Origin: a virus
Lineage: Duplodnaviria; Caudoviricetes
Strand: one strand, 5' to 3'
IMG/VR virus record: IMGVR_UViG_3300031696_000001
Location: 1-62,169 of that record
DNA: 62,169 nt
Both the position numbers and the translations under genes were made by a program. Under the pieces are notes generated by a model. That model made no database searches, was not told the origin of the DNA, and worked only from the letters and a program-made list of their open reading frames with translations. Shown here in pieces: positions 3,884 to 60,500 of the stretch (within the stretch, counting starts at the first letter, position 1; every line of letters begins with the position of its first letter).

Positions 3884-6281
3884 TTGTATATTCTTGATGT
3901 TTTGATTTACTTATATAACTAATCCATTTACCTAACATATCTTTTCCTTGTAAAGGATTACAATCAAACTTATAATTTCCATAAGATATGAGCCATTTAC
4001 CAAACTTTATTCGGCTCACAGTCATTTTTGCTTTTGGACCATAGTCAGGATACTCATTAATAAAATCTAAATATAAATCATTTTGATAAATTCTTGTATC
4101 TAAACATAGCTTAGGGTTATCTATCCCATCAATTATTCCGCACCACTCAATAAATTCGTGAGATGTATCGGCAGATAGTACACGAGTCTTAAGATTTACA
4201 AATTCACTTTTTAACAAACCTTTTTCTAAATATAATTGTAAACACGTGATCATATAATTATCAAACTGACACCAATCATTATCATTCCATTCTCCAAACA
4301 TTAACTTACCGAACTCTACCAATGGAGTAAACTCTTTAGTATAAAATTGACTAAGTTCTAACTCCCACTTTCTACGAGCAAAAGAATTACCCTTTCCTTT
4401 TATAGCATAGTTAGTAGTGATAGCCACCTTTGGAGATTTACTAAATGGTATCTTAATAGAATCTTTATTTTTCTTTTCTAAAGTTAATCCTTCCGTAACC
4501 ACACTAAACAATCTCTCAAAGTCAAAGTGTTTTTTTACATCATCAAAACATAATATTTGAGTGTCAGCGGAAACTAATTGATAGGCAAATGATTTATCAA
4601 AGTTAAATGACTTACCATCTATCACTACTAACTTTTTCATTTGTGCTAACCCATTCATAAATAATCCCTTCCCTGTTCCTCCTTCAGGATTGTCAGATAT
4701 AACCTCATCATTTAGTATTGTAGCTGGACAATAGGATAAGTTTTTCCATCCATGTAATAAGTATCCAGTAGTAGATTCCATAGATAATGTTCTTTTAGCA
4801 TCCCCTCCCGATATATTATATATAAAGGTTTTAAAATCACAATCAGTAACATCACATACATCAAATACTCTATCAATAACATGATCCTTCCAAACATAAC
4901 CTCCTAAATCTAAATAATCAATAGGAATAATTTCATTTTTAGTTATCTTAACTGCACAATTAATGTAGTAAAGATATGCTGTGTTTTTAGTGTCAGCTAC
5001 AAAGTATACATTTATAGATCCAAGTAGAGTTAGAAATTCTTCTCTAAAATATTTTACACTTTCAGCAAAATAATTATATATACTCTTATCATCTATGTCT
5101 AAAAGAAAAGTTAATACAAAATCTTTTATTTCTTTTTCAGATGTATGGTCAATTAAATTGTTAGTTACCTTTACAAAAACATAACTTTTACTTCCCTCGG
5201 GACTAAACTTATAAAATCCATTATCTTCTAAGAATTGTTTAAAAGATATATGTATAATTTTTACAACTCCCTTCTCACTTTTTGTCCAAAACTTTTGTTC
5301 GTCTTGTTCTTCCTCTAACCTTTTTACTACATTATCTAAAACCTGATCCTCAACATCTAAGTTCTCTGCAATCTCAGATTTAATTTCAGAGGCAGTAGCC
5401 CCCTTTCTTAATTTTCTTTTAACATTATTTACCTTTTCCTCATCCTCATAATATTTAGTTCCAAAGTTTTGTACTTGCTTATATGCTGAATTAATAGTTC
5501 TTATTATTTCATTTTTTGGAAAATCTTTGCTTACAAAATTACCCATAACATACTCTGCTAAAGTTTTATTAATTCCAAAGTCATTAAACGCTGATGCCAA
5601 TATAAATACATTTTGATTTCTCTCTCCACTATTCAAACCATACTTTCTTTCCCACCACTTTAAAAGAATTTCTATAATCTTATTCTCATTAGTTATTGGT
5701 ATAGTCTGTACATCTTTATGCTTAACAACCTCTTGATACTCTTGCTCTATAACTTGATTAAAAATACTTGACTGCTCATTAATATATATTAACGGATCAT
5801 AGGATTCATAACATACTCTTGATACATTCTTACAAGATATATCAAAGTATTCACTATCATAATGATATTGTAAAGAATTAAAAAATTGTTTATGTGTTTC
5901 TTCTTCTGCTGGTATCTTAACTAATACCTTTAATCCTAAACCACTTGGTGATATAAAAACAGAAAATGTATATCTGTCTTTAGTTAGGGTTTCTTTTTTT
6001 TCCAACATATCTTTCTCTGAGGGAAAGTTATCAAAGTCTAAACACATAATTCCACTATGCTCAACTAAAGAAGAATCATTTCTTTTAGTAAATTTACCAC
6101 TAAAACATATAGCTGGTAATGATTGCTTTAATTTATTTCTTATTTCTTTATCCTTTTCTCCTCTTATTGACTTTACTATGTCTTGGGATGATCCTACTTG
6201 AATCCTTTCTAATATTCTTGATACGTCTCTATAGAAAGGTTGAGCAGTATCTTTAATATCTTTAAATATTGTTATTTCCAT
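3870..6281 (-). CDS. primase-helicase (VirE-N/BT4734-like N-terminus, PriCT, P-loop helicase)
   Basis: LPAICFSG, CLDFD, FISPSGLGLK, GERNQNVF, EGGTGKG Walker A, CFDD Walker B, TTNY. Confidence 0.88.
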   Translation of the reverse strand: MEITIFKDIKDTAQPFYRDVSRILERIQVGSSQDIVKSIRGEKDKEIRNKLKQSLPAICFSGKFTKRNDSSLVEHSGIMCLDFDNFPSEKDMLEKKETLTKDRYTFSVFISPSGLGLKVLVKIPAEEETHKQFFNSLQYHYDSEYFDISCKNVSRVCYESYDPLIYINEQSSIFNQVIEQEYQEVVKHKDVQTIPITNENKIIEILLKWWERKYGLNSGERNQNVFILASAFNDFGINKTLAEYVMGNFVSKDFPKNEIIRTINSAYKQVQNFGTKYYEDEEKVNNVKRKLRKGATASEIKSEIAENLDVEDQVLDNVVKRLEEEQDEQKFWTKSEKGVVKIIHISFKQFLEDNGFYKFSPEGSKSYVFVKVTNNLIDHTSEKEIKDFVLTFLLDIDDKSIYNYFAESVKYFREEFLTLLGSINVYFVADTKNTAYLYYINCAVKITKNEIIPIDYLDLGGYVWKDHVIDRVFDVCDVTDCDFKTFIYNISGGDAKRTLSMESTTGYLLHGWKNLSYCPATILNDEVISDNPEGGTGKGLFMNGLAQMKKLVVIDGKSFNFDKSFAYQLVSADTQILCFDDVKKHFDFERLFSVVTEGLTLEKKNKDSIKIPFSKSPKVAITTNYAIKGKGNSFARRKWELELSQFYTKEFTPLVEFGKLMFGEWNDNDWCQFDNYMITCLQLYLEKGLLKSEFVNLKTRVLSADTSHEFIEWCGIIDGIDNPKLCLDTRIYQNDLYLDFINEYPDYGPKAKMTVSRIKFGKWLISYGNYKFDCNPLQGKDMLGKWISYISKSKHQEYTNDRV

Positions 6282-6300
6282 TTTATTTGATTTATTATTT

Positions 6301-6468
6301 ATTATGTTAACTTTATGTTAACTTTTTTTTACTAACTACTACTTATATATTCTTTATTTATGACTATATGATAAGAAATATATATATATATATATAAAAG
6401 AAGTAAGTTTAGGTTTAGGCTTTATATAGAGAGTATATAAATTACAAGTAAAATCGTCATCTCATCAT
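6301..6468. repeat. origin-like element 1: inverted ATGAY pairs flanking an (AT)n tract
   Basis: ATGAC 6360 and ATGAT 6368; (AT)n 6378-6396; GTCAT 6456 and ATCAT 6464; tandem TATGTTAAC upstream; adjacent to the primase-helicase start. Confidence 0.6.
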
Positions 6469-6478
6469 TTTTAAGAGG

Positions 6479-6502
6479 AAAGAAAAGGGGCATGAAGCCC
6501 CT
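6479..6502 (-). terminator. intrinsic terminator after SSB
   Basis: AGGGGC-TTCAT-GCCCCT followed by TTTCTTT on the minus strand. Confidence 0.7.
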
Positions 6503-6525
6503 AATCTATTCTCTTGGGTTGAAAT

Positions 6526-6901: not shown

Positions 6902-7639
6902 TTAAAGTACTTCTTTAATGATATAATTTTCAATATCTTCTTTAGCATTTTTTCCATAAAATTTATTATACACTTCTATTGCTCTTTCTACTTTTTCCTT
7001 ACCATTCATTAGAAATGTTTGTGATGGATGGTATATGCCTAACTCAAATGTAGTCTTATCAACTACATAGAATACCATAGGCTTATCAAAGAATTGTTGG
7101 TATAGGTATGCTTGACTATCATAGTTATATTTCCTCGCACTATACTTAAAGTCCTTTATGTTTCCAGTAGTTTTAAGGTCAATTAACATATCTTTTCCTA
7201 CAATATCTGCTTTACCCTTCCACATCATACCCATAACCTCTTGTACTGCGGGTACTTCAAACTCATTAGCATCATCATAGATATCCTCAAAGAACTCTAA
7301 GTTATATTTCATTACAAGTACTGCACTATCTATTTTAGCTTTTTCTTTATCTAACATCATTAAAGTCCTACCATAACCAAGTATTTCTTCCTTGTACTTT
7401 TTAGAATTTCTACTTGTTACATCTATGCTTGTAAACTCTTCTGACACTAACTTCTCAGGCTCTAACATTGCAGTATGAAAATACCTACCGAGTAGCATTG
7501 GCATTGTAAAGTCTTTAGGCTTTCTAAATTCTTTAGGGTTATTAAGTAGGGTTATAATATCTGAATTAGATAAGTATTGTTTACCAAACTCCCCATAGTA
7601 ATGGTCATCATCTTTTAATTTTTCTAATATATCTTTCAT
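6902..7639 (-). CDS. PD-(D/E)XK exonuclease (RecE/exonuclease VIII-like)
   Basis: LSNSDI, GRYFHTAMLEP, KGKADIV, IDLKTT, YDSQAYLY. Confidence 0.85.
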   Translation of the reverse strand: MKDILEKLKDDDHYYGEFGKQYLSNSDIITLLNNPKEFRKPKDFTMPMLLGRYFHTAMLEPEKLVSEEFTSIDVTSRNSKKYKEEILGYGRTLMMLDKEKAKIDSAVLVMKYNLEFFEDIYDDANEFEVPAVQEVMGMMWKGKADIVGKDMLIDLKTTGNIKDFKYSARKYNYDSQAYLYQQFFDKPMVFYVVDKTTFELGIYHPSQTFLMNGKEKVERAIEVYNKFYGKNAKEDIENYIIKEVL

Positions 7640-10894: not shown

Positions 10895-11064
10895 TATTTT
10901 ATTTTTAGTCCATCGTTAATTTTAATAGCTTTCTTTAAGCTAAGTGTCCAGTCTTTGATAACATTATCAATATTTTTATCTATTGTAGCATTATGCTTAC
11001 CCTTAGATTTTTTAAGTTTCTCAATCTCTTGGATTAAGAATTCTTGTAATTTGTTATTTTTCAT
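10894..11064 (-). CDS. small hypothetical protein (56 aa)
   Basis: MKNNKLQEFL...; TAATG coupling to the next gene. Confidence 0.6.
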   Translation of the reverse strand: MKNNKLQEFLIQEIEKLKKSKGKHNATIDKNIDNVIKDWTLSLKKAIKINDGLKIK

Positions 11065-11069
11065 CTTAT

Positions 11070-11345
11070 TTATATTAAATTAATCATTACAGTACCAGCA
11101 TCATACCACTCAGAGTACCATCCTCTTTTCTTTAACTCTTCTTCCCATTTATTAAGTACTCCAAATACTCTGTTATTATGATCCTCAGAATAGTAGTCAT
11201 ATATTACCTCTCCTTTATACTCCTCCATAGATTCTCCACATAAGTGTATACCTCCAGTGCCTCCGCTAAAGTCTTCTGATGTACCTACAAACTCTTGATG
11301 TTTTGATAACCAATTCATCATTTGGTTTCTTTTTATTGCTTTCAT
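11070..11345 (-). CDS. hypothetical protein
   Basis: 91 aa, ...GWYSEWYDAGT. Confidence 0.8.
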   Translation of the reverse strand: MKAIKRNQMMNWLSKHQEFVGTSEDFSGGTGGIHLCGESMEEYKGEVIYDYYSEDHNNRVFGVLNKWEEELKKRGWYSEWYDAGTVMINLI

Positions 11346-11377
11346 TGTTTATTTAAATTTGATTATTAATTCGTTTG

Positions 11378-11409
11378 CAAAGATAAGTAATATATATTTA
11401 TTACACAAG
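11378..11409 (-). promoter_or_regulatory. Bacteroidota-type early promoter
   Basis: CTTG-N20-TATCTTTG on the minus strand. Confidence 0.7.
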
Positions 11410-11430
11410 TTTTATACAACTTATTTACAC

Positions 11431-11778
11431 TTATCGGTAGTCATCACAAAATAATTGCCATTCCATCCATCGCTCAATCTTTACCAGCTCTTTGATGGAT
11501 GTTAATTGCACATTTAATATTAATATTGATTTATCATTCTCTTTACTTATCTCATCACTATACTTTGGCATAATATCATCTCCATCATTGTTATACCAAA
11601 ACTCCCCAATAATTTCTCCACATATTGCCTCTATCTCAATTAAAGAATCATTGTAGTATCCTCCAGTACCTTTGTGCAATGCCTTTGAAATCTTATTAAC
11701 TATTGATTGCATCTCCTTAATTTGCTTATCTTGTTCTTGTGGTATCTCAACCTCGTATACATCGTTAAATACTTTCAT
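11431..11778 (-). CDS. hypothetical protein, paralogue of 12453..12782
   Basis: Shared QIKE..S...KI......TGGYYNDS(L/I)I motif. Confidence 0.8.
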   Translation of the reverse strand: MKVFNDVYEVEIPQEQDKQIKEMQSIVNKISKALHKGTGGYYNDSLIEIEAICGEIIGEFWYNNDGDDIMPKYSDEISKENDKSILILNVQLTSIKELVKIERWMEWQLFCDDYR

Positions 11779-11875
11779 TTTGTGTGCTTTAAATTTTAGG
11801 AATCAACTGTTGACTCCTTGTACCACCAAAACCTCACTACTTTCGTAGCAAGGCAAATGGTGTCCAACACACAAT
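11779..11875 (-). ncRNA. structured RNA motif copy A (GNRA hairpin, GGTA linker, RGGARTCAR/TTGATTCCT hairpin)
   Basis: Hairpins at 11824-11862 and 11798-11818; homologous to 13562-13655 with compensatory changes. Confidence 0.7.
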
Positions 11876-12160
11876 TTATCTATTTAAGGCATTCATTATA
11901 CCTTTACCTATTATCCTTTGTCTTTCTCTAAATTCAGAACAATCTATCTCTACCTTATCAAACCATTTTACATCCTTACTATTATCTAATTTGATGATGA
12001 CATCTCCATATTTATTTAGGATCTGTTGCTTGTACCTAATAAGACTATCTTTATCATACACTAATCTCATACTATCTCCTCCATTAGGCATATGTACTTG
12101 TCCTAAAAATATCTCCATTAACATATCATATGTTAACCATCTTAATTTCATTCTTATCAT
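11876..12160 (-). CDS. hypothetical protein
   Basis: 94-aa ORF. Confidence 0.75.
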   Translation of the reverse strand: MIRMKLRWLTYDMLMEIFLGQVHMPNGGDSMRLVYDKDSLIRYKQQILNKYGDVIIKLDNSKDVKWFDKVEIDCSEFRERQRIIGKGIMNALNR

Positions 12161-12165
12161 ATCTA

Positions 12166-12450
12166 TTATATTTCAGTTAATATTCCGTTAATCTCCTCAT
12201 ACTCATAGTCTTCAGGACATTCCCATTCAGTCCAATAGTAAATTTCATCATTGTAAGCCCATTCAAGTAGTCCATCATCATCTAATAAACTTAGAGGTAT
12301 ATCGTTTCCCTCTTCATCTTCAGCAGTCCAATCCTTACTCCTGAGTAGCTTAATTAAGTCCTTCTTATGCTTGATATATTCATTGTCATTGAATACATAA
12401 CCATCATTCATTCCCTCTCCCGTTACCGAGCAACATCTTGCATATTTCAT
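12166..12450 (-). CDS. hypothetical phage protein
   Basis: MKYARCCSVTGEGMNDGY...YYWTEWE. Confidence 0.8.
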   Translation of the reverse strand: MKYARCCSVTGEGMNDGYVFNDNEYIKHKKDLIKLLRSKDWTAEDEEGNDIPLSLLDDDGLLEWAYNDEIYYWTEWECPEDYEYEEINGILTEI

Positions 12451-12452
12451 AA

Positions 12453-12782
12453 TTATCTTTTTATTTCCTCCATTAGTAATTCAACCTTTACCATCTTAGT
12501 AATTGATGATAATGTTTCTTTTAAGTCCTTGATAGTAACCTTATTTTGAAGTCCTATCTCAACACTATAAACCATACTCTCCTCCTTTAAGTAGTATCCA
12601 TCAGCATCCATTATTCCATTTGCATAAGCAAACTCATCCCATATATAGCTTGAATCATCAGTACAGATTATACTATCATTATAGTAACCTCCCGTTGATT
12701 TACCTACTTGATTAGCAATCTTTCTCATTAAGGATGATACCTCCTTAATCTGTATCTGTTGAATTTGTGTATCTAATTTCAT
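12453..12782 (-). CDS. hypothetical protein, paralogue of 11431..11778
   Basis: Shared TGGYYNDS motif; lies directly downstream of the hammerhead. Confidence 0.8.
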   Translation of the reverse strand: MKLDTQIQQIQIKEVSSLMRKIANQVGKSTGGYYNDSIICTDDSSYIWDEFAYANGIMDADGYYLKEESMVYSVEIGLQNKVTIKDLKETLSSITKMVKVELLMEEIKR

Positions 12783-12808
12783 GTTGTTGGTGTTAATTGG
12801 TATCTTAT

Positions 12809-12863
12809 GATACTGACACTACTTGCGTAGTGTTTCGGCTAATAGAAGCCTCATCAGAGTATC
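12809..12863 (-). ncRNA. type I hammerhead ribozyme
   Basis: GAUACU-CUGAUGA-GGCU(UCUAUU)AGCC-GAA-ACACUAC(GCAA)GUAGUGU-C^AGUAUC: complete core, three perfect stems, GUC cleavage triplet. Confidence 0.93.
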
Positions 12864-12865
12864 TA

Positions 12866-13561
12866 TTATTTGTTATGATGGTGTATGTGAGTCTCTATCA
12901 AATCATCAGAGTATCTCTTGATTACCTCATTCCAATCTATAAGGTTTATATCATTTGCATTGAATTCATCCTCTCTAACTAATCTGAAGAATGTTTGTAA
13001 GATATCCTCTTTCCAATACTCAGTATTATCTAACACTAAACATAATCGGTAGGTTTGGATGTTTGTGTATCCGTTAACCTTTACACTATCCATAATTGAT
13101 TTACCAATTTCATCTCCATTCTCATCAATACAAGCATCATTCTGAGCATCTACCCAAGCATCTGATTGATATTTTTTAACATCAACTGCATCTCCATTCT
13201 CATCAAAATCTCCTAAGATATCCTCATCTCTGCAATCAGGACATATATCACAGAAATCATGTTCTTCTCTTGTCATGTCTTTATCACATACCTCACAAAT
13301 AGGTTCAAACTCCTCTCCAGCTATTCTCGGTAGGAAATGCTCATCCTCTGCATATATACCTTTGAAATCATGCAGTACATCCGTTAACCTATGCTCTAAG
13401 TTATTTACTACTGCTATTACCCATTCTGGGTTTAATTCTACTACTCTGCCTATTGCCGTCTTACTATCTACTCCAAAGTTTAACTGCCAATCTTGGCTAA
13501 GGAAAAAATTCATTGGCATAAGGAAATTTAATCTTGGTACTAACATCTCATCTCTTTTCAT
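12866..13561 (-). CDS. hypothetical protein with Cys cluster (likely start MKRDEML at 13561)
   Basis: CEVC...CDICPDC and two DENGD repeats. The ORF-track start at 13588 lies inside an RNA hairpin, while 13561 follows the TTAAARCACACAA leader. Confidence 0.75.
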   Translation of the reverse strand: MKRDEMLVPRLNFLMPMNFFLSQDWQLNFGVDSKTAIGRVVELNPEWVIAVVNNLEHRLTDVLHDFKGIYAEDEHFLPRIAGEEFEPICEVCDKDMTREEHDFCDICPDCRDEDILGDFDENGDAVDVKKYQSDAWVDAQNDACIDENGDEIGKSIMDSVKVNGYTNIQTYRLCLVLDNTEYWKEDILQTFFRLVREDEFNANDINLIDWNEVIKRYSDDLIETHIHHHNK

Positions 13562-13655
13562 CTTGTGTGTTTTAATGGTAGGAATCAATTGCTGATTCCC
13601 TCTACCTCGAATAACTCACATATCTCTATGCAAGTCGTTCGGTAGTGGTGTTAGG
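13562..13655 (-). ncRNA. structured RNA motif copy B
   Basis: Hairpins at 13602-13645 and 13580-13600; same layout as 11779-11875. Confidence 0.7.
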
Positions 13656-13868
13656 TTAGATAGTATCGTATCCTAACTCAGATAACCATTCGTTATAAAA
13701 TTTGTACATTTCCTCCTTAGTACGGTACATTATACCTGCTGAAGTAGGGTGATTGGATATACTCTGATAGTAAGTAATACATCCGTTACCATCTGACATC
13801 TTCTCCTTATAAAGATATATCTTGTATCCCTCGCAAACCTTGTCCATATGTAATGTGTGTAATAGCAT
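13656..13868 (-). CDS. hypothetical protein
   Basis: 70-aa ORF. Confidence 0.7.
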   Translation of the reverse strand: MLLHTLHMDKVCEGYKIYLYKEKMSDGNGCITYYQSISNHPTSAGIMYRTKEEMYKFYNEWLSELGYDTI

Positions 13869-13886
13869 AATTTATTCTCTTTTTTA

Positions 13887-14162
13887 TTAGTTATTTAGGT
13901 ATAATTCTGATTTCTCAATGTTCTTGATTTCATACTTAGGTAATTCATCTAAGTACATGGTGTAAACATCCCATATTGACTCGCACTTATCATTTATCTT
14001 ATCCCATTCCCTCCCTTCTTCCCCAATTAGATTGGAAATTATATCTCTTGCATCATTACAGGAATGATACTTGCTTAACCATGTTGTTGCCTTGTTTACA
14101 AGGGATTGATTCTTCTTGTTTACTGCTGTAATTGTCTCATCGTAGACTCTAATTTTACTCAT
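13887..14162 (-). CDS. hypothetical protein (first early gene)
   Basis: 91 aa, preceded by TTAAAGCACACAATT and a promoter. Confidence 0.8.
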   Translation of the reverse strand: MSKIRVYDETITAVNKKNQSLVNKATTWLSKYHSCNDARDIISNLIGEEGREWDKINDKCESIWDVYTMYLDELPKYEIKNIEKSELYLNN

Positions 14163-14202
14163 AATTGTGTGCTTTAAGTTAATGTTGTGTTTAAATTCTG
14201 TG

Positions 14203-14233
14203 CAAAGATAGTTTATTAAATTGGATAATCAAC
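14203..14233 (-). promoter_or_regulatory. Bacteroidota-type early promoter
   Basis: GTTG-N19-TATCTTTG on the minus strand. Confidence 0.7.
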
Positions 14234-14435
14234 TATAATTTCAAAAGAATTGTTGTTCCATATACTCAAGATACTGTAAGTGATTGATAATCAGCATACA
14301 TAAGATATCTTAATTTACCTGGTAAATTGGTGATATGTTTATGTGTTTGGGGTGTCGATGGGGTACTAAGAGACATCTCTTTGTCTCTATTAATTCTCTT
14401 TAAGTTTATAATGTGGGGAGTATTGGGGAATCCGT

Positions 14436-14460
14436 AGTCATTAAGGAGTCATTAAGGAGT
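14436..14460. repeat. tandem 11-bp repeat AGTCATTAAGG x2 plus AGT
   Basis: Read directly from the sequence. Confidence 0.9.
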
Positions 14461-14491
14461 AAGTAATGCGTGTAACGAGGGAACAGTAGGG

Positions 14492-14534
14492 GTGTGCATG
14501 GGGCTGAGACTGGCAGTGTGCATGGGGCTGAGAC
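14492..14534. repeat. 19-bp direct repeat GTGTGCATGGGGCTGAGAC x2 with 5-bp spacer
   Basis: Copies at 14492-14510 and 14516-14534. Confidence 0.9.
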
Positions 14535-17746: not shown

Positions 17747-18151
17747 ATGGGAGTTAAAGTAAAACCAAGAGAAGGAGGTCCAAAAGTAAAAGTAAATTTA
17801 AATAGAAAAAAAACCATACCAATGGTTGGAGCCCCTGTTGTTAAGAAAAAGACTGTTGTTAAGAAAAAGACTGTGGTTAATAAAAAGCCTGTGGTTAAAA
17901 AAAAGCCTGTGGTTAAAAAAAAGCCTGTTCTTAAGAATAAAAACATTGTAGATACTAAGATGAAAAATGTAGTACCAATGGTTAAAAAGAAGGTGAGACA
18001 AAAAATAAAGAATATTAAAAATTCTACTCCTAAACAGTTAGTTAAAAAATCAATTAATGCCGTTACAAGTAAGGTTAAAAAATATTACATTAAACCAACC
18101 ATTCGTAGAGCAAAAGCTTTAAAGAGTTTATACGGAAGAATAACAAAATAA
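17747..18151 (+). CDS. Lys-rich histone-H1-like basic protein
   Basis: Six (P/T)VVKKK-type hexapeptide repeats. Confidence 0.7.
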   Translation: MGVKVKPREGGPKVKVNLNRKKTIPMVGAPVVKKKTVVKKKTVVNKKPVVKKKPVVKKKPVLKNKNIVDTKMKNVVPMVKKKVRQKIKNIKNSTPKQLVKKSINAVTSKVKKYYIKPTIRRAKALKSLYGRITK

Positions 18152-51501: not shown

Positions 51502-54500
51502 ATGGATAATTTAGAAAAATTATATAACGTTTTAAAAAGGGATGGGTTTATTACTAAATCTTTTGATGAATTCGTTGATCAAGCAACTCAGGATTCTGAC
51601 TATCAGGATAAAATATTTAATGTAGTAAGTCGTGAAGATTTGTTTACTGGAAGTCCAGATGAGTTTTCAAAAAAATATTTTTCAGAACTTGCTACATCTC
51701 CTGTTGAAGAGGTAAAAAAAAAAGACGATTCTCAACCTACTGGGGAAGAGGAAGTTATGGTATCCGATACAGAAGTGGTGGACGAGCGTGGATCATCGGA
51801 GCCTTCTGTTCAGATAAATTCTGAAGAAGAAATTGTTGATCCTGAAACTTTAGGTGAAATAGAACAAATTCAAGAAGTTCCAAATAGATTTGGAGCGGAC
51901 ACTCCCAAAGAAGAGATGTTTCTACATGATGATGAAATTGCTATTGGCGTTCAGCCAGGTGAGGAAGATACTACTATTGAAGAAATATTTGGTAAAAATG
52001 AATTCACTGATTTCTTTGGTGATATGTGGAGAGCTGGAGCTCAAGGGCAAGCTCAAGGAGGGACTGTAGATGAATCATTAGAACTTTTAATGAAAGGAGG
52101 AAATGCTTCTCAGAATGATATAGAAGAATTCTTAATTTCATATCAAGCAATGCAAAGGGCTGGTGTATCTGATGAAATGAATGCCTTCAATAAAATATAC
52201 CAAAAAGATGGCGGAGGTATATTAGGTTTTATAAAAGGAGTTGCCGCTAACCCAACCGTTGTACCTCAATTATTTATCTCATCTGTAAGTGCTATGGTAA
52301 ACCCTACTGTACTTGCAGCGGCTACAGCAGGTGCTGTAGCGGGTAGTGTTATTCCAGGAGCGGGTACTATAGCTGGTGGAATGTTTGCAGCAGGTACTAC
52401 ATTAGAAACAGCCCTTACATTTGGTGAGCTTTTAGAGGAGGCTCTTGATGGTGAGCCAATGACAAACGCTAACATTCGTTCTGTACTTGAAGATGCTGAA
52501 AAAATGAGTAGTATAAGAATGAAAGCACTGGGGCGTGGTTTAGCTATTGGTGCTATTGATGGTTTAACAGGTGGTCTTGCAACTAAGTTAACTACAAGTG
52601 TTGCTAAGGCTACATCAAAAGCTGGTAAAACTGTATCTCGATTAACAGCTGCAACAGCTGGCGGTACACTTGAGGCTGTAGGTGGATCAACAGGTGAAGT
52701 TGTTGGTAGATTAGTTGCGGGTCAAGAAATGGATGTTGCTGAAATATTATTTGAAGGTGTTGCTGGTACTGCTACAGCTCCGATTACTGTAGGTGCTGGA
52801 TTACTTAATGCTGCAAGAAAACCTCCCGTTTATGAAATGAATAAAGGCCCTGCTACAAGAGCAGATATAATAGAGCTTTTAGAAAGTGATGATACTGATG
52901 CTATATTAGATGCTGAAGTTAGTGTTGAAAATGATCCTGAATTAAGTAAACAAGTTGAGGCTGCTAAGAAAAAAATATTAGATAAAAAAGTTTTAAATAG
53001 AGATTTAAAAGATGCTGGTATTACAGATCAAAATGCTATAGATGAAATGACTGCTTTAGAAGAAGAGGCAGAAGCTTTAAAGGGAAATAATACAAGAGCA
53101 GGGAAGAGAAGATTAGCTGAAATTAATCAACGTATTGATGATATACTTGATACGGCAGCAGTAGAACAAGAGGTTGAGGTTACAATCGAAGATAAAGTAA
53201 CTACAGAGTCTGAAAGATTAGCGGCATTAGAAGAAACTTTAGAGGGTAAAGATTTAGAAGTATTGCAACTGATGAGGGATAAAAATAAGAGTCAGGATAT
53301 GATTGATAATCATATTAAAAATAAAGCTAAAAATACTGGTAAAGGAAATCAACTATCAACAAAATTTAAAGCCGAAGACACATTACTAAATCCTGAAGGA
53401 AAATCATTTGCTGAATTAGTATCAGCTTATTCTTTAATATTTGAAGGTAAAAACCTACCAGTAAAAACAATACAAGATATATTAGCGGATACTCCTGATT
53501 TAAGAGATTTAAATTTAGGAAATACTAATAGGTTTTATCCTCTTCAACAAGCTATTCTAAATTTTGAATCTTATCAAAATAAAAAAAATAACCAAAAAAC
53601 TAAACAAGATGCCATTCAAGAGGTAAGCGTAGAAGAACAAGAGGTTGAAATACAAAAAGAGAGGGATGATTATGAAAAAAAATATTTTACCCTTGATGAA
53701 GAAAATCAAAAAAATAAAGATAAAGGAGAGACTTATTCATACTCTGCAGAAAACCTTAACGAAGGATTTACTTTAGAAGAAGCTCAGGAAGCAAAAAGGG
53801 TAATGGAAGCTAAACATGATAATTTATTAAAAACTAAAACTGAACAAAATGCCATTCAAGAGTCAAGCACAGAGAGCGTGGATGTACAAGAACCTACCGA
53901 AAGTAGCACAGAAGTGGGAGACGGAAACACCCAAAGGAACGCTACCCAAGAAAGTATCGAGAGTGAAGCAGATACTGAAACGCAATCGCAAGAGGAAGTA
54001 GAAACGGTTACTGAAAATAGTGATGGAACTTTAAGTATACCTAATCCAAAAACAGGAAAGGTTGCTAAGTTAAAAGGTAAAAAGATAGGGGAAACATCAA
54101 ATCTTTATATTTCAGATATGATATCTGAAAACATAGATCCTTCATATGAAGGTAATACAGAAGCTAAAACTAAGCAAGAGAATTATATAACAAAAATTGC
54201 AATTAAAGCAGCTAAATCTATTGCTAAGTTATTGCCTAATACAAATATAATATTACATAGTACAGAGGCTTCATATAATAAGGGAGCTGGTCAAGTATCT
54301 CAAATATATACAAGAAAAAAGGGATCACGTGGGGTTTTTAAGCCAACCACAAACGATATTCATATTAATATGACTCATGCTAATGCCAAGACAATAGCAC
54401 ATGAAATATTTCATGCTTTACTTTATAATAAGTTTAAGAGTGATGAGAGGATAGGTATTGTTACTTATAAAATGGTTGAGTCTATTAAGAAAAAAATTAC

Positions 54501-57500
54501 AGATCCAAAATTAAAGAAACAACTACAGAAATTTAGTGATAATTATACTGAAACTCCACAGTTTCAAGATGAAGAATATCTTGCTGAATTAATTGGTACT
54601 CTTGCAGATAATTATAAATCATTAAAAAGGCCTGAAAAAACTATAGTTCAGAAGTGGTTAAATAAATTAAAGAATATAATGGGTATGGAGGCAGAGGTAA
54701 TAGATACTGATGCTGATACATTAGATTTATTAGCTACTATTGCTGAGAATATTAAGGAAGGTAAAGAAATTACAGAGTCTGATATTTCTCAATTAGATAC
54801 GTTTGAACAAGGAGAAGGCGGTGAAGTAGGTGTTTTAAACTTTTCAGATAAAGAATCTAAAATAAACCCAGCCCCAAAAGTCGAGTCAGATAGTAGGCCA
54901 TTTTCAAGCCTTATAAAAAATAAAGATATTAGTGACTTTGATGGTCAAAACTTTGTTACCAATATGTATGACTTTACTACAGCTGGTATAGTTGATATTG
55001 GTAATGGTATTACTTTACAGTTGGAGGGCGGTAAAAGTTATGTTCCATTAATGATGAGTAGAAAAGGGTTAAAAATAGGTGATGTATCAAATCTTGCTGC
55101 CTTTAACACTAAGTCTCAAGCTGAAGGGTTTATTAGAAACTCACAAGAGGGTAACGCTAAACTATTTATGCCTCACTCTGGAACATTAGAAGGGTCTTGG
55201 CAGTTCCAACAATCTATATTTGAACAGATTATTAAAGTTATTTTAGACAATAAGATTGTAACAAACAAAGAATTAATATCATCTCTTAGTAAGGGTCTTG
55301 TAAATAAAAAGGGAAAAGAAATAAAAGAGTGGAGAATATTTAAGGAAAATTACAAGAAGGCTACAGGTAAAGACATAAATAACCTTGATTCTTTTGTTAA
55401 AGATCCGTTGCAATTAGTTAAATTATTAGATATTGAAAACAACTACTCTCCAGATTTAAGAAAAAGATTTAACTCATTGGTAATCTCTATCAAAAAATTT
55501 AAAGATGCGACTGGAGTAACAAGTAAAACAGACTTTGCTTTAAAGATAATGGATCCTCTTAATGAAGGTATAGAAGCGTTTGATCTTATGTCCGTTATAG
55601 AGTTTGATAATACAACTTTTGAAATAAGTAAGCCTAAAAAAGGAGATGTTGATTATCATCCATCTTTTGCGTGGACTATTAAAGCAAAAATCAAAGGTAT
55701 ATACCAACCAACTAATTTTCAGAAGTCTTATGATATAACTGATTCATATGTTAAATATAATCAAGAGGGACCTTCAAAATCTACAAGAGATAATAAGTTA
55801 GAAAGAGAATATGGATTAGCGTTAAAAGGAAAAAAGATTAACGATAAAGGAAAGGTTGTAAAGCGAAGTAAATCAGAGATTGGGGGTGAATTTTATGAGG
55901 GAACATACCCAGAGTTTCAAGAATATAAGTTTCAAGTATCTAACGTAGCAAGTAGTGCAGGGTCTATACCAAAGGTAGCTAAAGTAAATAATACAACTGA
56001 TAAAGCACAGAAACTAACAACTGAAGAGGTATATTCTGAAATAGGAATGACTACTGATGAGGTTAAGGCTTGGAAAAAGGATAACAATAAAAGTATTAAA
56101 ATGCCTCATCCTAAGGCAGCTCTTGAGGCAGCTAATAGTTACTCTAATGGAGATATAACTCTTAATGAATACAATGAAATTATTCAAAAAGAAATGCCTA
56201 TTACTCCTTACACTAAGGTTCCAAAGCCTGCTACTATAAAGGATGTAGTTTTAGCATTACAGCCTAATAAAGTTCAGAAAGGAATTATAGGATTAACAAC
56301 AGAAATTAAGGATGGAGAAAAAGTATCATCTCGTTTAGATATACCATCATATCAATCTCATGGTATATATGTAGATACTATTCATGGTCCTAAAGGTAAA
56401 GGAGTACTTGGATACGGGCAGACAGCTGTTCTTAAAAATGTAGAATTTACAAGTAATGCTAAAAAAGCATTAGGGGTAGCTAAAGGTACTCAATCAAAAT
56501 CACCATTTGCCGTTATGGATGGGTCGTATGTTAATGAAAGTACAGAGAGTGCAACTAAGAGAGCTCAAGAAGCTCTTAATAGTAATGAGTGGGTTCAGGT
56601 AGGATTTAATCCTTATCGTCAAGCATCATTCTATAATAAAGCAGATAGCAGGCCTGTTACATCAGCTGCTGAAATTATACAAGTTGGACCATTAGTAATG
56701 GCTAAAGGAGTGAAGTATGGTAAGCCTTTAAAAATATCACCAGATGGAAATGAAAGATTTCAATTAGTGGATGATTATTCTGTAAAAGAAACAGGTCAAG
56801 GAGAGTTTACATTAATGAAGGGAATTAGAAGGGCGGGAGAGATGTCTATTGCTGAATTACAATCTGATAAACCAAGTGTATCCCAAGTGTACATCAAAAA
56901 ATTTGATCAAGGGAAAGGATTAGCTCCTGATATGTATAGAGAGATAGCTAATATATTAGCTCTTAAAGGAAAAATATTAACATCTTCTAAGTTCACTAAT
57001 AATGCTTCACAAGGAGTATGGAAAAGATTAGTTAAAGATGGTGATGCAATAGTTATAGGCAGTCGTATTGATGCTGAGGGTAAAAAAAGAGATCTATATT
57101 CTATGCTTCCTACAGATCCTTTATTAGAAGGAGTATCTAATGAACGTGAGCAAAAAACAACTCCTGATAGTATTGAGGGATATAATAGAATGATTAAGGA
57201 GGTTGAAAATATTATATCTAAATCTGAAAAACGTGGGGTAAAGTTTAATGATATTTCTAAGAATGTAATTAATTACATCCAAGGATCTAAGGTTTATGAA
57301 ATAGCTACTGACATCCAGCGTGAGGATATTATAAGGGATGTGAGAGCAAAATTTGGTATAAAAGAAAAAGCAGCTCCATCAGTAAAGAATGTAATAGGTA
57401 AGGCAATGTCTGTTCTTTTTGGAGAAACAAAAGAAATAAAAAAGTTTACTGTAACAGAGAAACAATTATTAATACAAAGACTTAAGCAATTAAACGAAGG

Positions 57501-60500
57501 AGCTAAAACAGCTAAGAAATCTTTTATGAAGGCCAGTAAAGAACTTGCAGATGGTGTATCTGAAATGGTTTCTATTGGTAAAATATCTACCAAACAAGCT
57601 GCTGCTGTTATAAAAAGATTCAGTAAGGTTAATATGTTTAATGAGGCATCTATAGAAAGATTTGTAGACTATATGGCTAAAGTATTTGCTAATGCTGAAT
57701 ACGCTGAACAGATTGCATTTGCAAGAAAGAAAGTTAAACAGGCTAATAAAAACATCAGAACAAAACTTGGTATAGCAACTGACTTAATTAATCCACTACA
57801 AAGATTATTTAGTATTGATCCAACATTAATTCCTGACAGTGTATTTAAAAAATACCTATCACTTGTAGAGGTGTTTGGGGAAAGAGCAACAGTTCTTACA
57901 TTAGAGCAAAAGCAAGAAACTCTTAAGGAAGTTCAAGATGTACTTGATAAAATAAATGAGGAGCAAAGTCAAGCTGAGGAGATGGCTTTGATATTTGCTG
58001 ATTATAAAAATAAAGTATTCAACGATGATGGTAAACTAAACTACGCTGAGACTATTAAAGCTATGTTAGAAGACGGAAAAATTGATGAAGACTCCGCAGC
58101 TATTATGCGTAAGTATAAGAGTGATATTTTACCTCAAATTGATGCAGTAGAAAAAACTGATGAGCAAATTCAAGAAGAAAAGGATGAGGTTATAGAGGAG
58201 TTTAATAATATAATTATGGATGTCTCTAATCTTCCAAGTCAAGATGAAAGAAATTTAGCTCGTAGATTAAATAAGTTAATAGATACAGTGGCTCTTGATA
58301 AGCTTAATCTTACTCAACTTAAGAACTTACTTAAGGTTATTGATAATATTAATAATGGATACTTGCCTCACTATTCTCAGTTGTTAGTAGAACAAATGAA
58401 TTCAATAAACGATTCAGAAAAATTAACTGACGCTATAGGTAACGCAAAACCATTACTAATTTCTAAATTTATAGCTAAGATTAAAACACTTTTAACAAAA
58501 AAGAAAGATGCTTATTTAGAGATGATAAGAAGAAATCCTTTATATAATATAGACCAATTATTTGGTAATTGGAAAGGGAAAGAAATTTTTGATTCTTTAT
58601 TTTCTAAGGTTGCCGAGGGAGTAGCGACTTATAATTCTGAGTACAATAAAATTCAGAAAAAAATAGAAAAATCTATTAATGATGTATCTAAGTCATTTAA
58701 AGGTAATCCAGCTAAAACATTAGAATCATCATTTAAACAAATGGCTTATATGATTCAGTTAGAGTTTCAATCTAATCCAGATAGCAAACAAGTTAATCCT
58801 GCATCTGAGTATATGAAAAAGACTATAAAAGCTATAAGAGATGGGAAATCTGCTTTATACACAGAGAATGATGCTCAAGTTCTTGAGAAAATACTAAAAG
58901 ACTTTAGTGATAAAGACGGAAATATTAGTTTAGAAAAGTTAGATAAATCATTTAATAATGCTGAAAAAAACTCTATAAAAACTGTTAGAGAAATAAACCA
59001 ATCTCTTTTACCTGTAGCTGAATACACATCAGCTATTATAAGAGGAGATAAAATAAACCCACTAACAAATTACATTCACTTACCTGTAATGAATGAATCA
59101 AAGCCTATAGATGTTACAGCTGATGTTGTTAGAAGTTTTGGTGAATCTCTTAATCCATCTACAAAAGCAAAGTCTTTAATAGAAAGAACTGGGAAGGTTT
59201 CTCCTATCAATTTTAATATATATTCATCGGTTCAAAAAGGATCTAAAATGGTATTGATGGATAGACACCTAACAGAACCTATTAGAACAGCAAGACGTAC
59301 TCTTAATAGGACAGAATCTACATTAGAAACAGAAAATGGAGGAACAATTCCAGTAGAACAAAGAAAGGTGTTTAATGCTATTAAGGCTGCTTTTTTAGAA
59401 TCTTCAGATAATCTTTTACAAAATACATTTACAGAAACTACTATAGCTGATGATGTTGTTAATTATATTAGTAAGCAAGGATATAGATCTGTTCTTGCTG
59501 GTACCCCCAGATTTATGGCTGAACTTACTTCTAATATAGGATTTGCATTAATGATTAATCCTAAGGCATTTAAAACAGGTATTAATAATAGAGGGTTTAT
59601 TTTATCTGCTGAAGCTCCATCTGTAATGCAGAATGTAGGTAGTAAGCAAACAGGCAGAATATTTTCTGGAGATACATTATCTGGTAAAATGATAGACACT
59701 AATATACTTAACCAAAGTGCAGGTACAGAAAATGGCAGAACCAGGGGGATTATAGCTAATAAGATTCAACAAATATATAATCTATCATTAAAGAAATATA
59801 TAAACTTTGTAGAGTTAACTGCTGACGCTTTAATATCTACTCCTGATAAATTAGTAATGAGGCCTATATGGTTTGGGGATTTTGCTAATGTATTTAAGGC
59901 TGAGGCAGGTGTTGAGGTGGACTTCAATAAGATAGCTGCTAATGATGAGGCTTATATGAAAGAGTATTCTGAAGCAATACAGAAGGCTAAAGATGCTGCC
60001 GATGAAACATCTGTTAAGACTGGAGCAACTGATAATCCATTTATGAATGTACTAAAAGGTAAATCAAAACCTAATCAAACAGCTTTTCTTAGAGCTTTCA
60101 ATAACTTTAATGGTTTTATGATGAATTTTTTACTATTTGAATATGTGACAGCAAGAACAGGTCTTTATGCCGCTATGGGTAATGGTACTATTACAAAAAA
60201 GCAAGGGATAGCAACTTTAGCTGCAGTAACAACTCGTATGATAACATATACTCTACTAACTCAAATGCTTGGGTCTGGGTTAATCGGACTTCTGTTTGGT
60301 AGTGATGAGGAAGAAGAAAAAAAATCTATAGGAAAACAGATTGGACAAGCTATTTCTTCTGCATTCACATCATTATTAATTGGAAGAGACTTTGGAAATG
60401 CTGTTAAATCAATACTAAATCAAGGAGTTGAAGTGTTTAACGAAGAGTATCTTGACTTTCTAAGAGAAGGTGAGTATGATCCGTATAAAGATAGTATTCA

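What the first reader, a model, noticed from the sequence alone, without database searches (positions are those of the whole stretch)
13562..13655. Unassigned two-hairpin RNA motif, copy B
Seen (minus strand): CUACC-GAAC-GACUUGCAUA-GAGA-UAUGUGAGUU-AUUC-GA-GGUAG-A-GGGAAUCAG-caa-UUGAUUCCU-ACCA-UUAAAACACACAAG-AUG. It fills the intergenic gap exactly. A second CUACC at the end of hairpin 2 could pair with GGUAG instead, giving an alternative fold. It also implies the downstream gene starts at 13561.
Basis: partly seen in the sequence, partly recalled or inferred. Interest (0 to 1): 0.7.

Follow-up and report, generated by a model that had tools for sequence, protein, structure and literature searches.

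The report
Phage intergenic RNA hairpin punctuation motif
This is one copy of a conserved, previously uncatalogued RNA hairpin element that marine phages place between genes of their early operon, in the same slots where related phages carry hammerhead ribozymes, so it probably marks where a long message is cut or ended.

Summary
The 94-nt gap 13562-13655 (minus strand) folds into the hairpins described (z -5.1). A second copy lies at 11779-11875.

It belongs to a family of 74 distinct sequences from about 60 marine viral contigs. It matches no Rfam family.

The conserved core is narrower than "two hairpins":
- a 10-bp hairpin with a GAAA loop and strong covariation;
- a nearly invariant 3' tail, UUU-S-GUGGUA, that pairs back to a C/A-rich 5' flank to give a 15-22 bp imperfect helix;
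- an A-rich leader followed by AUG.

Hairpin 2 is present in only 34 of 69 copies. The proposed alternative CUACC pairing occurs in 1 of 69. The ATG start at 13561 is supported.

The element always lies between co-directional genes. It usually starts 10-18 nt after a stop codon and shares operons with type-I hammerhead ribozymes; one sits in the window at 12863-12809. At one homologous gene junction the motif and a hammerhead replace each other.

My best reading (about 0.4) is an RNA-level transcript punctuation site: a host-nuclease processing and 3'-end-stabilising hairpin. Partial terminator is the main rival. A new ribozyme is unlikely, about 5%.

The parts
13641..13645 (-). Copy B, P1 5' strand CUACC (extended by GAA 13640-13638)
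   Evidence: Pairs with GGUAG 13606-13602 and UUC 13611-13609 in the MFE fold. Family column C-N-A-Y-C is conserved.
13613..13636 (-). Copy B, P2 hairpin: GACUUGCAUA / GAGA loop / UAUGUGAGUU
   Evidence: In the family, 8 of 10 P2 pairs change on both sides and 97.5% of cells are paired.
13602..13612 (-). Copy B, conserved 3' tail AUUCGAGGUAG (family consensus W-UUU-S-G-U-G-G-U-A); includes the P1 3' strand
   Evidence: Columns 62-71 of alignment A6 are 92-100% conserved, apart from the two-state S column. This also holds in the 27 distinct sequences that do not match the scan pattern.
13580..13600 (-). Copy B, hairpin 2 (GGGAAUCA / GCAAU / UGAUUCCU); accessory
   Evidence: A hairpin in this segment (MFE <= -3 kcal/mol) is present in 34 of 69 distinct members.
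13562..13579 (-). Copy B, A-rich leader ACCAUUAAAACACACAAG
   Evidence: UUAAA in the leader is 70-100% conserved per column in the family. The same UUAAAGCACACAA leader follows the operon promoter upstream of ATG 14162.
13559..13561 (-). ATG start of the 231-aa gene (12866-13561)
11776..11875 (-). Copy A of the motif. P1 is 11862-11858 with 11828-11824; P2 is 11854-11831 with a GAAA loop; tail is 11830-11821; hairpin 2 is 11818-11798; leader follows, with ATG at 11778-11776. A long-range helix joins 11874-11866 to 11788-11780.
   Evidence: 107.9 bits.
12809..12863 (-). Type-I hammerhead ribozyme filling the neighbouring gap: CUGAUGA 12857-12851, GAAAC, GUC with predicted cleavage after C12815. 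It is a sibling punctuation element of the same operon.
   Evidence: Weak RAGATH-1-hammerhead hit of 24.5 bits, below the gathering score of 56.3.
14203..14210 (-). Bacteroidota-type -7 promoter box (TAnnTTTG) at the head of the leftward operon that carries both motif copies and the hammerhead
   Evidence: That this box is the promoter consensus is recalled, not tested.

Best explanation
The element is one member of a conserved family of intercistronic RNA 'punctuation' signals in roughly 60-kb marine phages, probably of Flavobacteriia. It acts on the sense-strand transcript. A GAAA-capped 10-bp hairpin (P2) is extended by pairing of its conserved G/U-rich 3' tail (UUU-S-GUGGUA) with a C/A-rich 5' flank (P1), giving a 15-22 bp imperfect helix. 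The helix usually begins 10-18 nt after the upstream stop codon. It is followed, often after a small second hairpin, by an unstructured A-rich leader and the next AUG. I infer that this helix is where the polycistronic early message is separated into units. A host endonuclease (RNase III-type is the best guess) would cut at or beside the invariant U-bulge and tail. The stable hairpin would then stay on the 3' end of the upstream message, and the downstream cistron would keep its own leader. That is the same outcome the neighbouring hammerhead ribozymes achieve by self-cleavage. Shown: the family, the structure, the strand, the positions, and co-occurrence and exchange with hammerheads. Inferred: that cleavage occurs, where, and by which enzyme.
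For: - **Structure.** z is -5.1 and -6.4 for the two window copies. In 74 distinct sequences, 8 of 10 P2 pairs change on both sides, 97.5% of cells pair, and the covariation score is 0.514 against 0.218 in shuffles and at most 0.099 when partners are slid.
- **Sense-strand RNA.** 128 P2 cells are G.U or U.G, which would be A.C mismatches on the other strand, against 18 non-standard cells.
- **P1.** The added energy is -8.7 against -6.0 kcal/mol for shuffled 5' flanks, and 19 of 62 copies beat at least 95 of 100 shuffles. In one member P1 and P2 form an unbroken 17-bp helix.
- **Position.** 67 of 74 copies have an upstream ORF ending nearby. The stop-to-P1 gap is under 10 nt in only 4 of 67 and 10-18 nt in 47 of 67. 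71 of 74 have a downstream ORF, with a median of 34 nt from GGUA to AUG.
- **Operon layout.** In ten mapped operons the genes abut, and the large gaps hold a motif copy, a hammerhead or a TAnnTTTG box.
- **Hammerhead partnership.** Hammerheads lie on the same strand in the same operons (54 rows, 29 distinct). In 54 further motif loci, 9 also carry a hammerhead, and 11 of 11 of those are on the motif's strand.
- **Exchange with hammerheads.** The gene after a motif copy in L005 is homologous to genes that follow a hammerhead in L007 and L096 (68% and 66% identity over 57-58 aa, E about 1e-23). In the window, the paralogous 109-aa and 115-aa genes follow the hammerhead and copy A respectively (41% over 102 aa).
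- **Single genes flanked.** A DNA methyltransferase gene is bracketed by two copies in L036, as described for hammerheads in prophages (PMC3088659, passages read).
- **Phage-specific.** The family pattern hits 67 stretches in viral contigs but only 2 in 185,579 species genomes.
Against: - There is no direct evidence of cleavage. The RNA runs are held only as contigs and show no ends.
- The helix (15-22 bp with bulges) is at or below the length usually quoted for bacterial RNase III substrates (recalled).
- P1 is weak in some members: 43 of 62 are not better than 95% of shuffles.
- An invariant UUU directly after a hairpin with a G+C-rich base is the classic mark of an intrinsic terminator.
- In a subgroup the motif follows the major head protein gene (2 of 2 tested), a place where attenuators are common.
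- The near-invariance of S-GUGGUA is only partly explained by pairing. It may point to a sequence-specific partner I have not identified.
- The motif is patchy: 12 of 42 related phage records carry it.
Confidence: 0.4

Rival explanations
1. It is a partial intrinsic terminator or attenuator. P2 plus the UUU tract stops a fraction of host RNA polymerases, which lowers expression of downstream cistrons and leaves a hairpin-ended upstream message.
For: The stem is 10 bp with a G+C-rich base and a GAAA loop, followed by UUU that is 97-100% conserved regardless of what lies opposite. The motif sits directly after the major head protein gene in L120, L151 and L172. The hairpin starts beyond the reach of a terminating ribosome. 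PeSL stem-loops in T4-type phages act as terminators in the same kind of slot (PMC2839356, passages read).
Against: The tool's terminator scan (at least 5 T in 8) does not call either window copy. The U run is always cut short by S-G (96% G at the next column). A canonical terminator in the same gene array has a long U tract, GGGGC..GCCCC UUUUCUUUCC in gap 6282-6525. P1, the conserved GUGGUA and hairpin 2 have no role in termination. The copies lie inside operons with an AUG 12-42 nt downstream. A hammerhead would not be a functional substitute.
Confidence: 0.25
2. It is an uncleaved structural insulator or decay barrier. The hairpin blocks 3'-to-5' exonucleases and keeps upstream coding sequence from pairing with the A-rich leader, which must stay open in an organism that starts translation without a Shine-Dalgarno sequence. 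In some copies a long-range helix couples translation of the two genes.
For: Every copy is followed by an unstructured A-rich leader with a conserved UUAAA. A related phage (L010) has a different, simple repeated hairpin in the same slots, also followed by an A-rich leader. In copy A and several relatives, a helix between the sequence just after the stop codon and the leader encloses the whole motif.
Against: It does not explain the near-invariant tail sequence or the fixed 10-bp length of P2. The long-range helix is absent in copy B, and its frequency (32 of 69 with a 6-bp match) was not controlled against chance.
Confidence: 0.15
3. It is a binding site for a sequence-specific protein or for RNA polymerase: a translational operator, a phage endoribonuclease site, or a nut/put-like antitermination signal.
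For: The GAAA loop and the tail UUU-S-GUGGUA are conserved as sequence and not only as pairs. The element is essentially confined to phage contigs.
Against: No candidate partner gene was identified. There are 1-3 copies per operon at varying distances from the promoter, and the motif also occurs after structural genes. Its patchy presence among close relatives fits a self-contained module better than a dedicated phage factor.
Confidence: 0.08
4. It is a new class of self-cleaving ribozyme that replaces the hammerhead.
For: It has the same slots, strand and operons as hammerheads, and is exchanged with one at a homologous junction. This is the association logic that led to pistol, hatchet and twister-sister (recalled).
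Against: The anatomy is a plain helix. P1 and P2 are fully paired in one member. Hairpin 2 is optional (34 of 69). The 4-nt loop leaves no room for a pseudoknot. There are few conserved unpaired bases other than UUU.
Confidence: 0.05

Closest known systems
Hammerhead ribozymes flanking genes in phage and prophage polycistronic transcripts (Perreault et al. 2011, PMC3088659; passages read)
   Same: Intercistronic position, same strand and same operons. It flanks single genes or short gene blocks and is followed by a short leader and AUG. It is exchanged with a hammerhead at a homologous junction.
   Different: No CUGAUGA/GAAA core and no three-way junction. Self-cleavage is not expected from the anatomy.
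RNase III processing hairpins between phage T7 early genes (R0.3-R1.3; recalled, no paper read)
   Same: An imperfect hairpin with an internal loop or bulge on the 3' side, lying between cistrons of a host-polymerase-made early transcript. After cutting, the hairpin would stay on the upstream message.
   Different: Different host phylum. The helix is somewhat shorter. The 3' tail is strongly conserved as sequence and the loop is GAAA. Cleavage is untested.
PeSL cassettes of T4-type phages (PMC2839356; abstract and passages read)
   Same: A repeated regulatory cassette spanning stop codon to ATG, with a stem-loop. It flanks small ORFan genes and accessory genes, and is a likely substrate for modular shuffling.
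   Different: PeSLs contain a strong host-type promoter. No TAnnTTTG box lies inside the motif copies of the ten mapped loci.
Intrinsic (rho-independent) terminators
   Same: A stem with a G+C-rich base, a stable tetraloop, and U residues directly after the stem.
   Different: Only 3-4 U, always followed by S-GUGGUA. The tail pairs back to the 5' flank. The position is inside operons, immediately before an AUG.
RAGATH motifs (RNAs found near twister and hammerhead-associated genes; Weinberg et al. 2015, recalled)
   Same: Found by the same kind of association with hammerhead ribozymes in phage-like marine sequence.
   Different: No Rfam family, RAGATH models included, matches the motif.

Membership tests
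Hammerhead ribozyme | Catalytic core CUGAUGA ... GAAA ... UH at a three-way junction | tested here: not met
   The core is absent from 13562-13655 and 11779-11875. There is no hammerhead hit on the motif at E<=10. The neighbouring gap 12783-12865 does have the core.
Any Rfam 15 family | Covariance-model score at or above the gathering score, or any hit at a permissive E-value | tested here: not met
   0 matches in the whole window at gathering. None fall on the motif at E<=10 in 11000-14500. None fall on other copies at E<=1 in 15 loci; all 7 hits there are sub-threshold hammerheads.
Intrinsic terminator | G+C-rich hairpin | tested here: met
   10-bp P2 with a C-C-U / G-G-G base.
Intrinsic terminator | U-rich tract after the stem (tool rule: at least 5 T in 8) | tested here: not met
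   Neither window copy is called. The family consensus is UUU followed by S-G-U-G-G-U-A.
Intrinsic terminator | RNA polymerase release at the U tract | not testable with these tools
   Needs in vitro transcription or Term-seq.
RNase III processing site (T7 R1.1 type) | Roughly two turns of imperfect double helix with an internal loop | tested here: inconclusive
   P1 plus P2 is 15-22 bp with a U bulge or internal loop. P1 is weak in part of the family.
RNase III processing site (T7 R1.1 type) | Lies between cistrons of a polycistronic early transcript | tested here: met
RNase III processing site (T7 R1.1 type) | Cut by RNase III | not testable with these tools
   Needs an enzyme assay or end mapping.
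PeSL cassette | Contains a host-type early promoter | tested here: not met
   No TAnnTTTG box lies within any motif copy in the ten mapped loci. The boxes lie in other gaps.
HK022 put-type antiterminator RNA | Two obligatory stem-loops, one site just downstream of each early promoter (recalled) | tested here: not met
   The second hairpin is present in only 34 of 69 copies. There are 1-3 copies per operon at varied distances, and the motif also follows a head protein gene.

The most novel reading that the evidence does not exclude
The element is a protein-independent functional twin of the hammerheads it alternates with. It would be a very small new self-cleaving RNA, or a cis-acting RNA that acts directly on the polymerase or ribosome, using the invariant GAAA loop and the UUU-S-GUGGUA tail.
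Probability: 0.06. Interest if true: 0.85.

Novelty: new variant of a known kind. Interest (0 to 1): 0.5.

Why it matters
What hammerhead ribozymes do in phages is still an open question; processing of long transcripts is suggested but not proven (PMC3088659, PMC6765202, passages read). These phages put hammerheads and a non-hammerhead hairpin family into the same slots of the same operon, and swap them in front of homologous genes. That gives a natural comparison. Whatever the hairpin does (cut by a host nuclease, end the message, or insulate the next start site) is likely to be what the ribozyme is there to do. It also adds an uncatalogued structured RNA family from abundant marine Bacteroidota-type phages. 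It fixes a gene start at 13561 and shows how such phages organise translation units without Shine-Dalgarno sequences.

Tried and rejected
- **First pattern scan.** An exact pattern from hairpin 2 plus leader gave 3 viral stretches. On folding they were unrelated chance matches.
- **Other searches without useful result.** blastn of 11400-14200 against phage records found no match. The search for related loci with the 231-aa protein returned 4 weak loci that were not used further.
- **N4-type DNA-hairpin promoter.** I considered this because the window encodes a 3127-aa ORF. I rejected it because the pairs work only on the sense strand (128 G.U cells), a host-type promoter heads the operon, and the giant ORF has no recognisable polymerase match.
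- **Resemblance of CCUCACUAU to T7/T3 promoter cores.** This is a recalled similarity. I rejected it because the stem covaries freely.
- **Shine-Dalgarno-like role for GGUGGU or GAGGU.** Rejected because of spacing: it lies 12-42 nt from the AUG.
- **Host chromosomal repeat or terminator family.** Rejected: only 2 hits in the species genomes, and the one I examined (L172) lies after a 425-aa ORF like the head-protein contigs.
- **RNA runs.** Six RNA-labelled seawater runs hold the region, and four were laid, all as assembled contigs. One contig spans copy A. Cover is low over 13539-13805 in all four runs, and contigs of one study stop near 13519-13526. Contigs cannot show ends or levels, and DNA carry-over is possible, so I draw nothing from this for or against processing.
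- **Ribozyme scan of relatives.** No other ribozyme class was found at gathering score in six related loci.
- **Long-range helix.** A 6-bp match is present in 32 of 69 copies, but this was not controlled against chance.
- **Rows dropped in the P1 test.** Of 73 distinct sequences, 4 had no P2 by my simple finder. A further 7 had a short flank or an over-extended stem. That left 62.
- **Sources not seen.** Supplements of the papers were not opened. Dataset S1 of PMC3088659 (hammerhead alignments) might already list these phage hammerheads.

Full report
**Observation.**
They fold into CUACC(GAA)/(UUC)GGUAG around a 10-bp stem with a GAGA loop, followed by an 8-bp hairpin. The energy is -28.4 kcal/mol, with z -5.12 and 0 of 200 shuffles as stable. 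A second copy fills the gap 11779-11875 (repeat family D8; -40.4 kcal/mol, z -6.44). The two copies differ at several stem positions on both sides. No Rfam family matches either copy, at gathering score or at E<=10.

**What the window is.**
The record is the whole 62,169-bp contig. It encodes terminase, portal, a primase/helicase-like protein, GroEL and a 3127-aa ORF of unknown family. GroEL's nearest named relatives are podoviruses of Flavobacterium (39% identity) and an uncultured virus (56%). Promoter-like boxes of the TAnnTTTG type recur; that this is the Bacteroidota consensus is recalled. Both motif copies lie in a leftward operon that starts at such a box (14210-14203).

**The family.**
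- GroEL brought in 79 related loci.
- A covariance model built from the two copies found 29 matches, all on the strand opposite GroEL as in the window. A second model found 36.
- In whole records, 12 of 42 relatives carry 1-3 copies (7 of 29 near-complete ones).
- A degenerate pattern of stem base, GARA loop and tail hit 67 stretches of the viral collection but only 2 in one genome each of 185,579 species. One of those is a Flavobacteriaceae MAG scaffold where the motif follows a 425-aa ORF.
- Searching 68 sources gave 99 matches and 74 distinct sequences.

**Anatomy.**
- *P2* is a 10-bp stem. 8 of 10 pairs change on both sides and 97.5% of cells are paired. The covariation score is 0.514, against 0.218 in shuffles and at most 0.099 with slid partners. 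The alignment was fitted to the model, which favours it.
- *Strand.* 128 P2 cells are G.U or U.G against 18 non-standard, so the fold belongs to the sense strand, which is the transcript.
- *Loop.* It is G-A-A-A at 88-100% per position.
- *Tail.* The ten bases after P2 are the best conserved part: U, U, U, S, G, U, G, G, U, A. Apart from the two-state S column, they are 92-100% conserved overall, and they are similarly conserved in the 27 distinct sequences that do not match my scan pattern.
- *P1.* The tail pairs with a C/A-rich 5' flank, consensus C-N-A-Y-C. The added energy is -8.7 against -6.0 kcal/mol for shuffled flanks, and 19 of 62 copies beat at least 95 of 100 shuffles. In one member the two helices are continuous for 17 bp. 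Part of the tail's conservation may be the usual asymmetry of a G/U-rich strand. The invariant UUU, often opposite unpaired or variable bases, needs another reason.
- *Hairpin 2* is present in 34 of 69 copies.

**Context.**
- 67 of 74 copies follow an ORF. The gap from the stop codon to P1 is under 10 nt in 4 of 67 and 10-18 nt in 47 of 67.
- 71 of 74 copies precede an ORF, with a median of 34 nt from GGUA to AUG and a conserved UUAAA in the leader.
- The same leader follows the operon promoter before ATG 14162, so the leader is a general start region and not part of the fold.
- This context, and the homologues of the 231-aa protein that also start right after their own motif copy, support ATG 13561 over TTG 13588.

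**Hammerheads.**
- The gap 12783-12865 holds a textbook type-I hammerhead: CUGAUGA, GAAAC, GUC, three stems. Rfam scores it below threshold.
- A pattern scan found 54 such sites (29 distinct, one of them weak) in the related loci. In GroEL-oriented loci all but the weak one lie on the operon strand. Rfam gave only sub-threshold hammerhead hits for them.
- Operon maps of ten loci show abutting genes whose large gaps hold a hammerhead, a motif copy or a promoter box, for example H-H-M-M-M in L036 and M-M-M-H in L005.
- In 54 further motif loci, 9 have a hammerhead, and 11 of 11 are on the motif's strand.
- The gene after a motif copy in L005 is homologous to genes after a hammerhead in L007 and L096 (E about 1e-23). 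The window's 109-aa and 115-aa paralogues follow the hammerhead and copy A respectively.
- Upstream genes include a DNA methyltransferase bracketed by two copies, an anti-restriction protein and, in another phage group, the major head protein.
- A relative without the motif (L010) uses a different repeated hairpin in the same slots.

**Interpretation.**
The element is an RNA-level punctuation mark of polycistronic phage messages. I favour endonucleolytic processing at the U-bulge and tail of the P1-P2 helix, leaving a hairpin-ended upstream message and a downstream cistron with its own leader. This resembles the RNase III sites of T7 early RNA (recalled) and the processing role proposed for phage hammerheads (PMC3088659, passages). 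The main rival is a partial intrinsic terminator. The invariant UUU and the position after a head-protein gene favour it. Against it are the short U run always closed by S-G, the absence of a call by the terminator scan, the canonical long-U terminator elsewhere in the array, P1, hairpin 2 and the hammerhead exchange. A passive insulator, a protein operator and a new ribozyme remain possible, in falling order. The plain-helix anatomy makes the ribozyme unlikely.

**Novelty.**
I found no description of it. Rfam 15 has no match. Searches of papers for RAGATH, hammerhead and phage terms returned nothing on such a motif. The kind, a structured intercistronic signal in phage operons, is known. The family and its pairing with hammerheads appear to be new.

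Noticed in passing
window 12809-12863 (-): A complete type-I hammerhead ribozyme fills the gap between the 231-aa and 109-aa genes, with predicted cleavage after C12815. Rfam scores it only 24.5 bits (RAGATH-1-hammerhead, gathering score 56.3). Similar sub-threshold hammerheads are common in the relatives.
   Followed up: yes
window 11431-11778 (-) and 12453-12782 (-): Paralogous small genes (41% identity over 102 aa, shared K.TGGYYNDS). One follows motif copy A and the other follows the hammerhead. No Pfam family matches.
   Followed up: partly
window 51502-60885 (+): A 3127-aa ORF matches only an unknown-function PHROG (phrog_32588). It has no PDB sequence match and one sub-threshold Pfam hit. 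Whether it is a virion-packaged polymerase like those of N4 or crAss-type phages is open.
   Followed up: partly
L010:4007-8088 (-): A relative without the motif carries another repeated perfect hairpin (GGGUCUCG-UCAG-CGAGACCC core) in at least four intergenic gaps of the same operon. Each is followed by an A-rich leader.
   Followed up: no
L025:5795-5913 (-), L018:7886-8309 (-), L036:8435-8507 (-): Hammerheads with very long insertions in stem III (about 35-70 nt). One copy in L025 (gap 7489-7622) has a variant core, CUGAAGAU.
   Followed up: no
window 11866-11874 with 11780-11788 (-): [quoted passage not shown] It encloses the whole motif. Similar pairing is seen in L088, L096 and L044, but its frequency was not controlled.
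   Followed up: partly
window 6282-6525 (-): A canonical terminator-like hairpin with a long U tract (GGGGCUUCAUGCCCC UUUUCUUUCC) lies inside the same leftward gene array, ahead of the primase/helicase-like gene.
   Followed up: no
window 17835-17960 (+): Six tandem 18-nt repeats lie downstream of GroEL (repeat finder family D1).
   Followed up: no
L036:5226-5990 (-): A DNA methyltransferase gene is bracketed on both sides by motif copies (5988-6057 and 5144-5217). This looks like a gene cassette.
   Followed up: partly
window 12817-13025 and 13208-13322: In one RNA run (X5), a contig replaces these stretches with other letters, so a variant strain with a different middle of the 231-aa gene co-occurs in seawater.
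   Followed up: no
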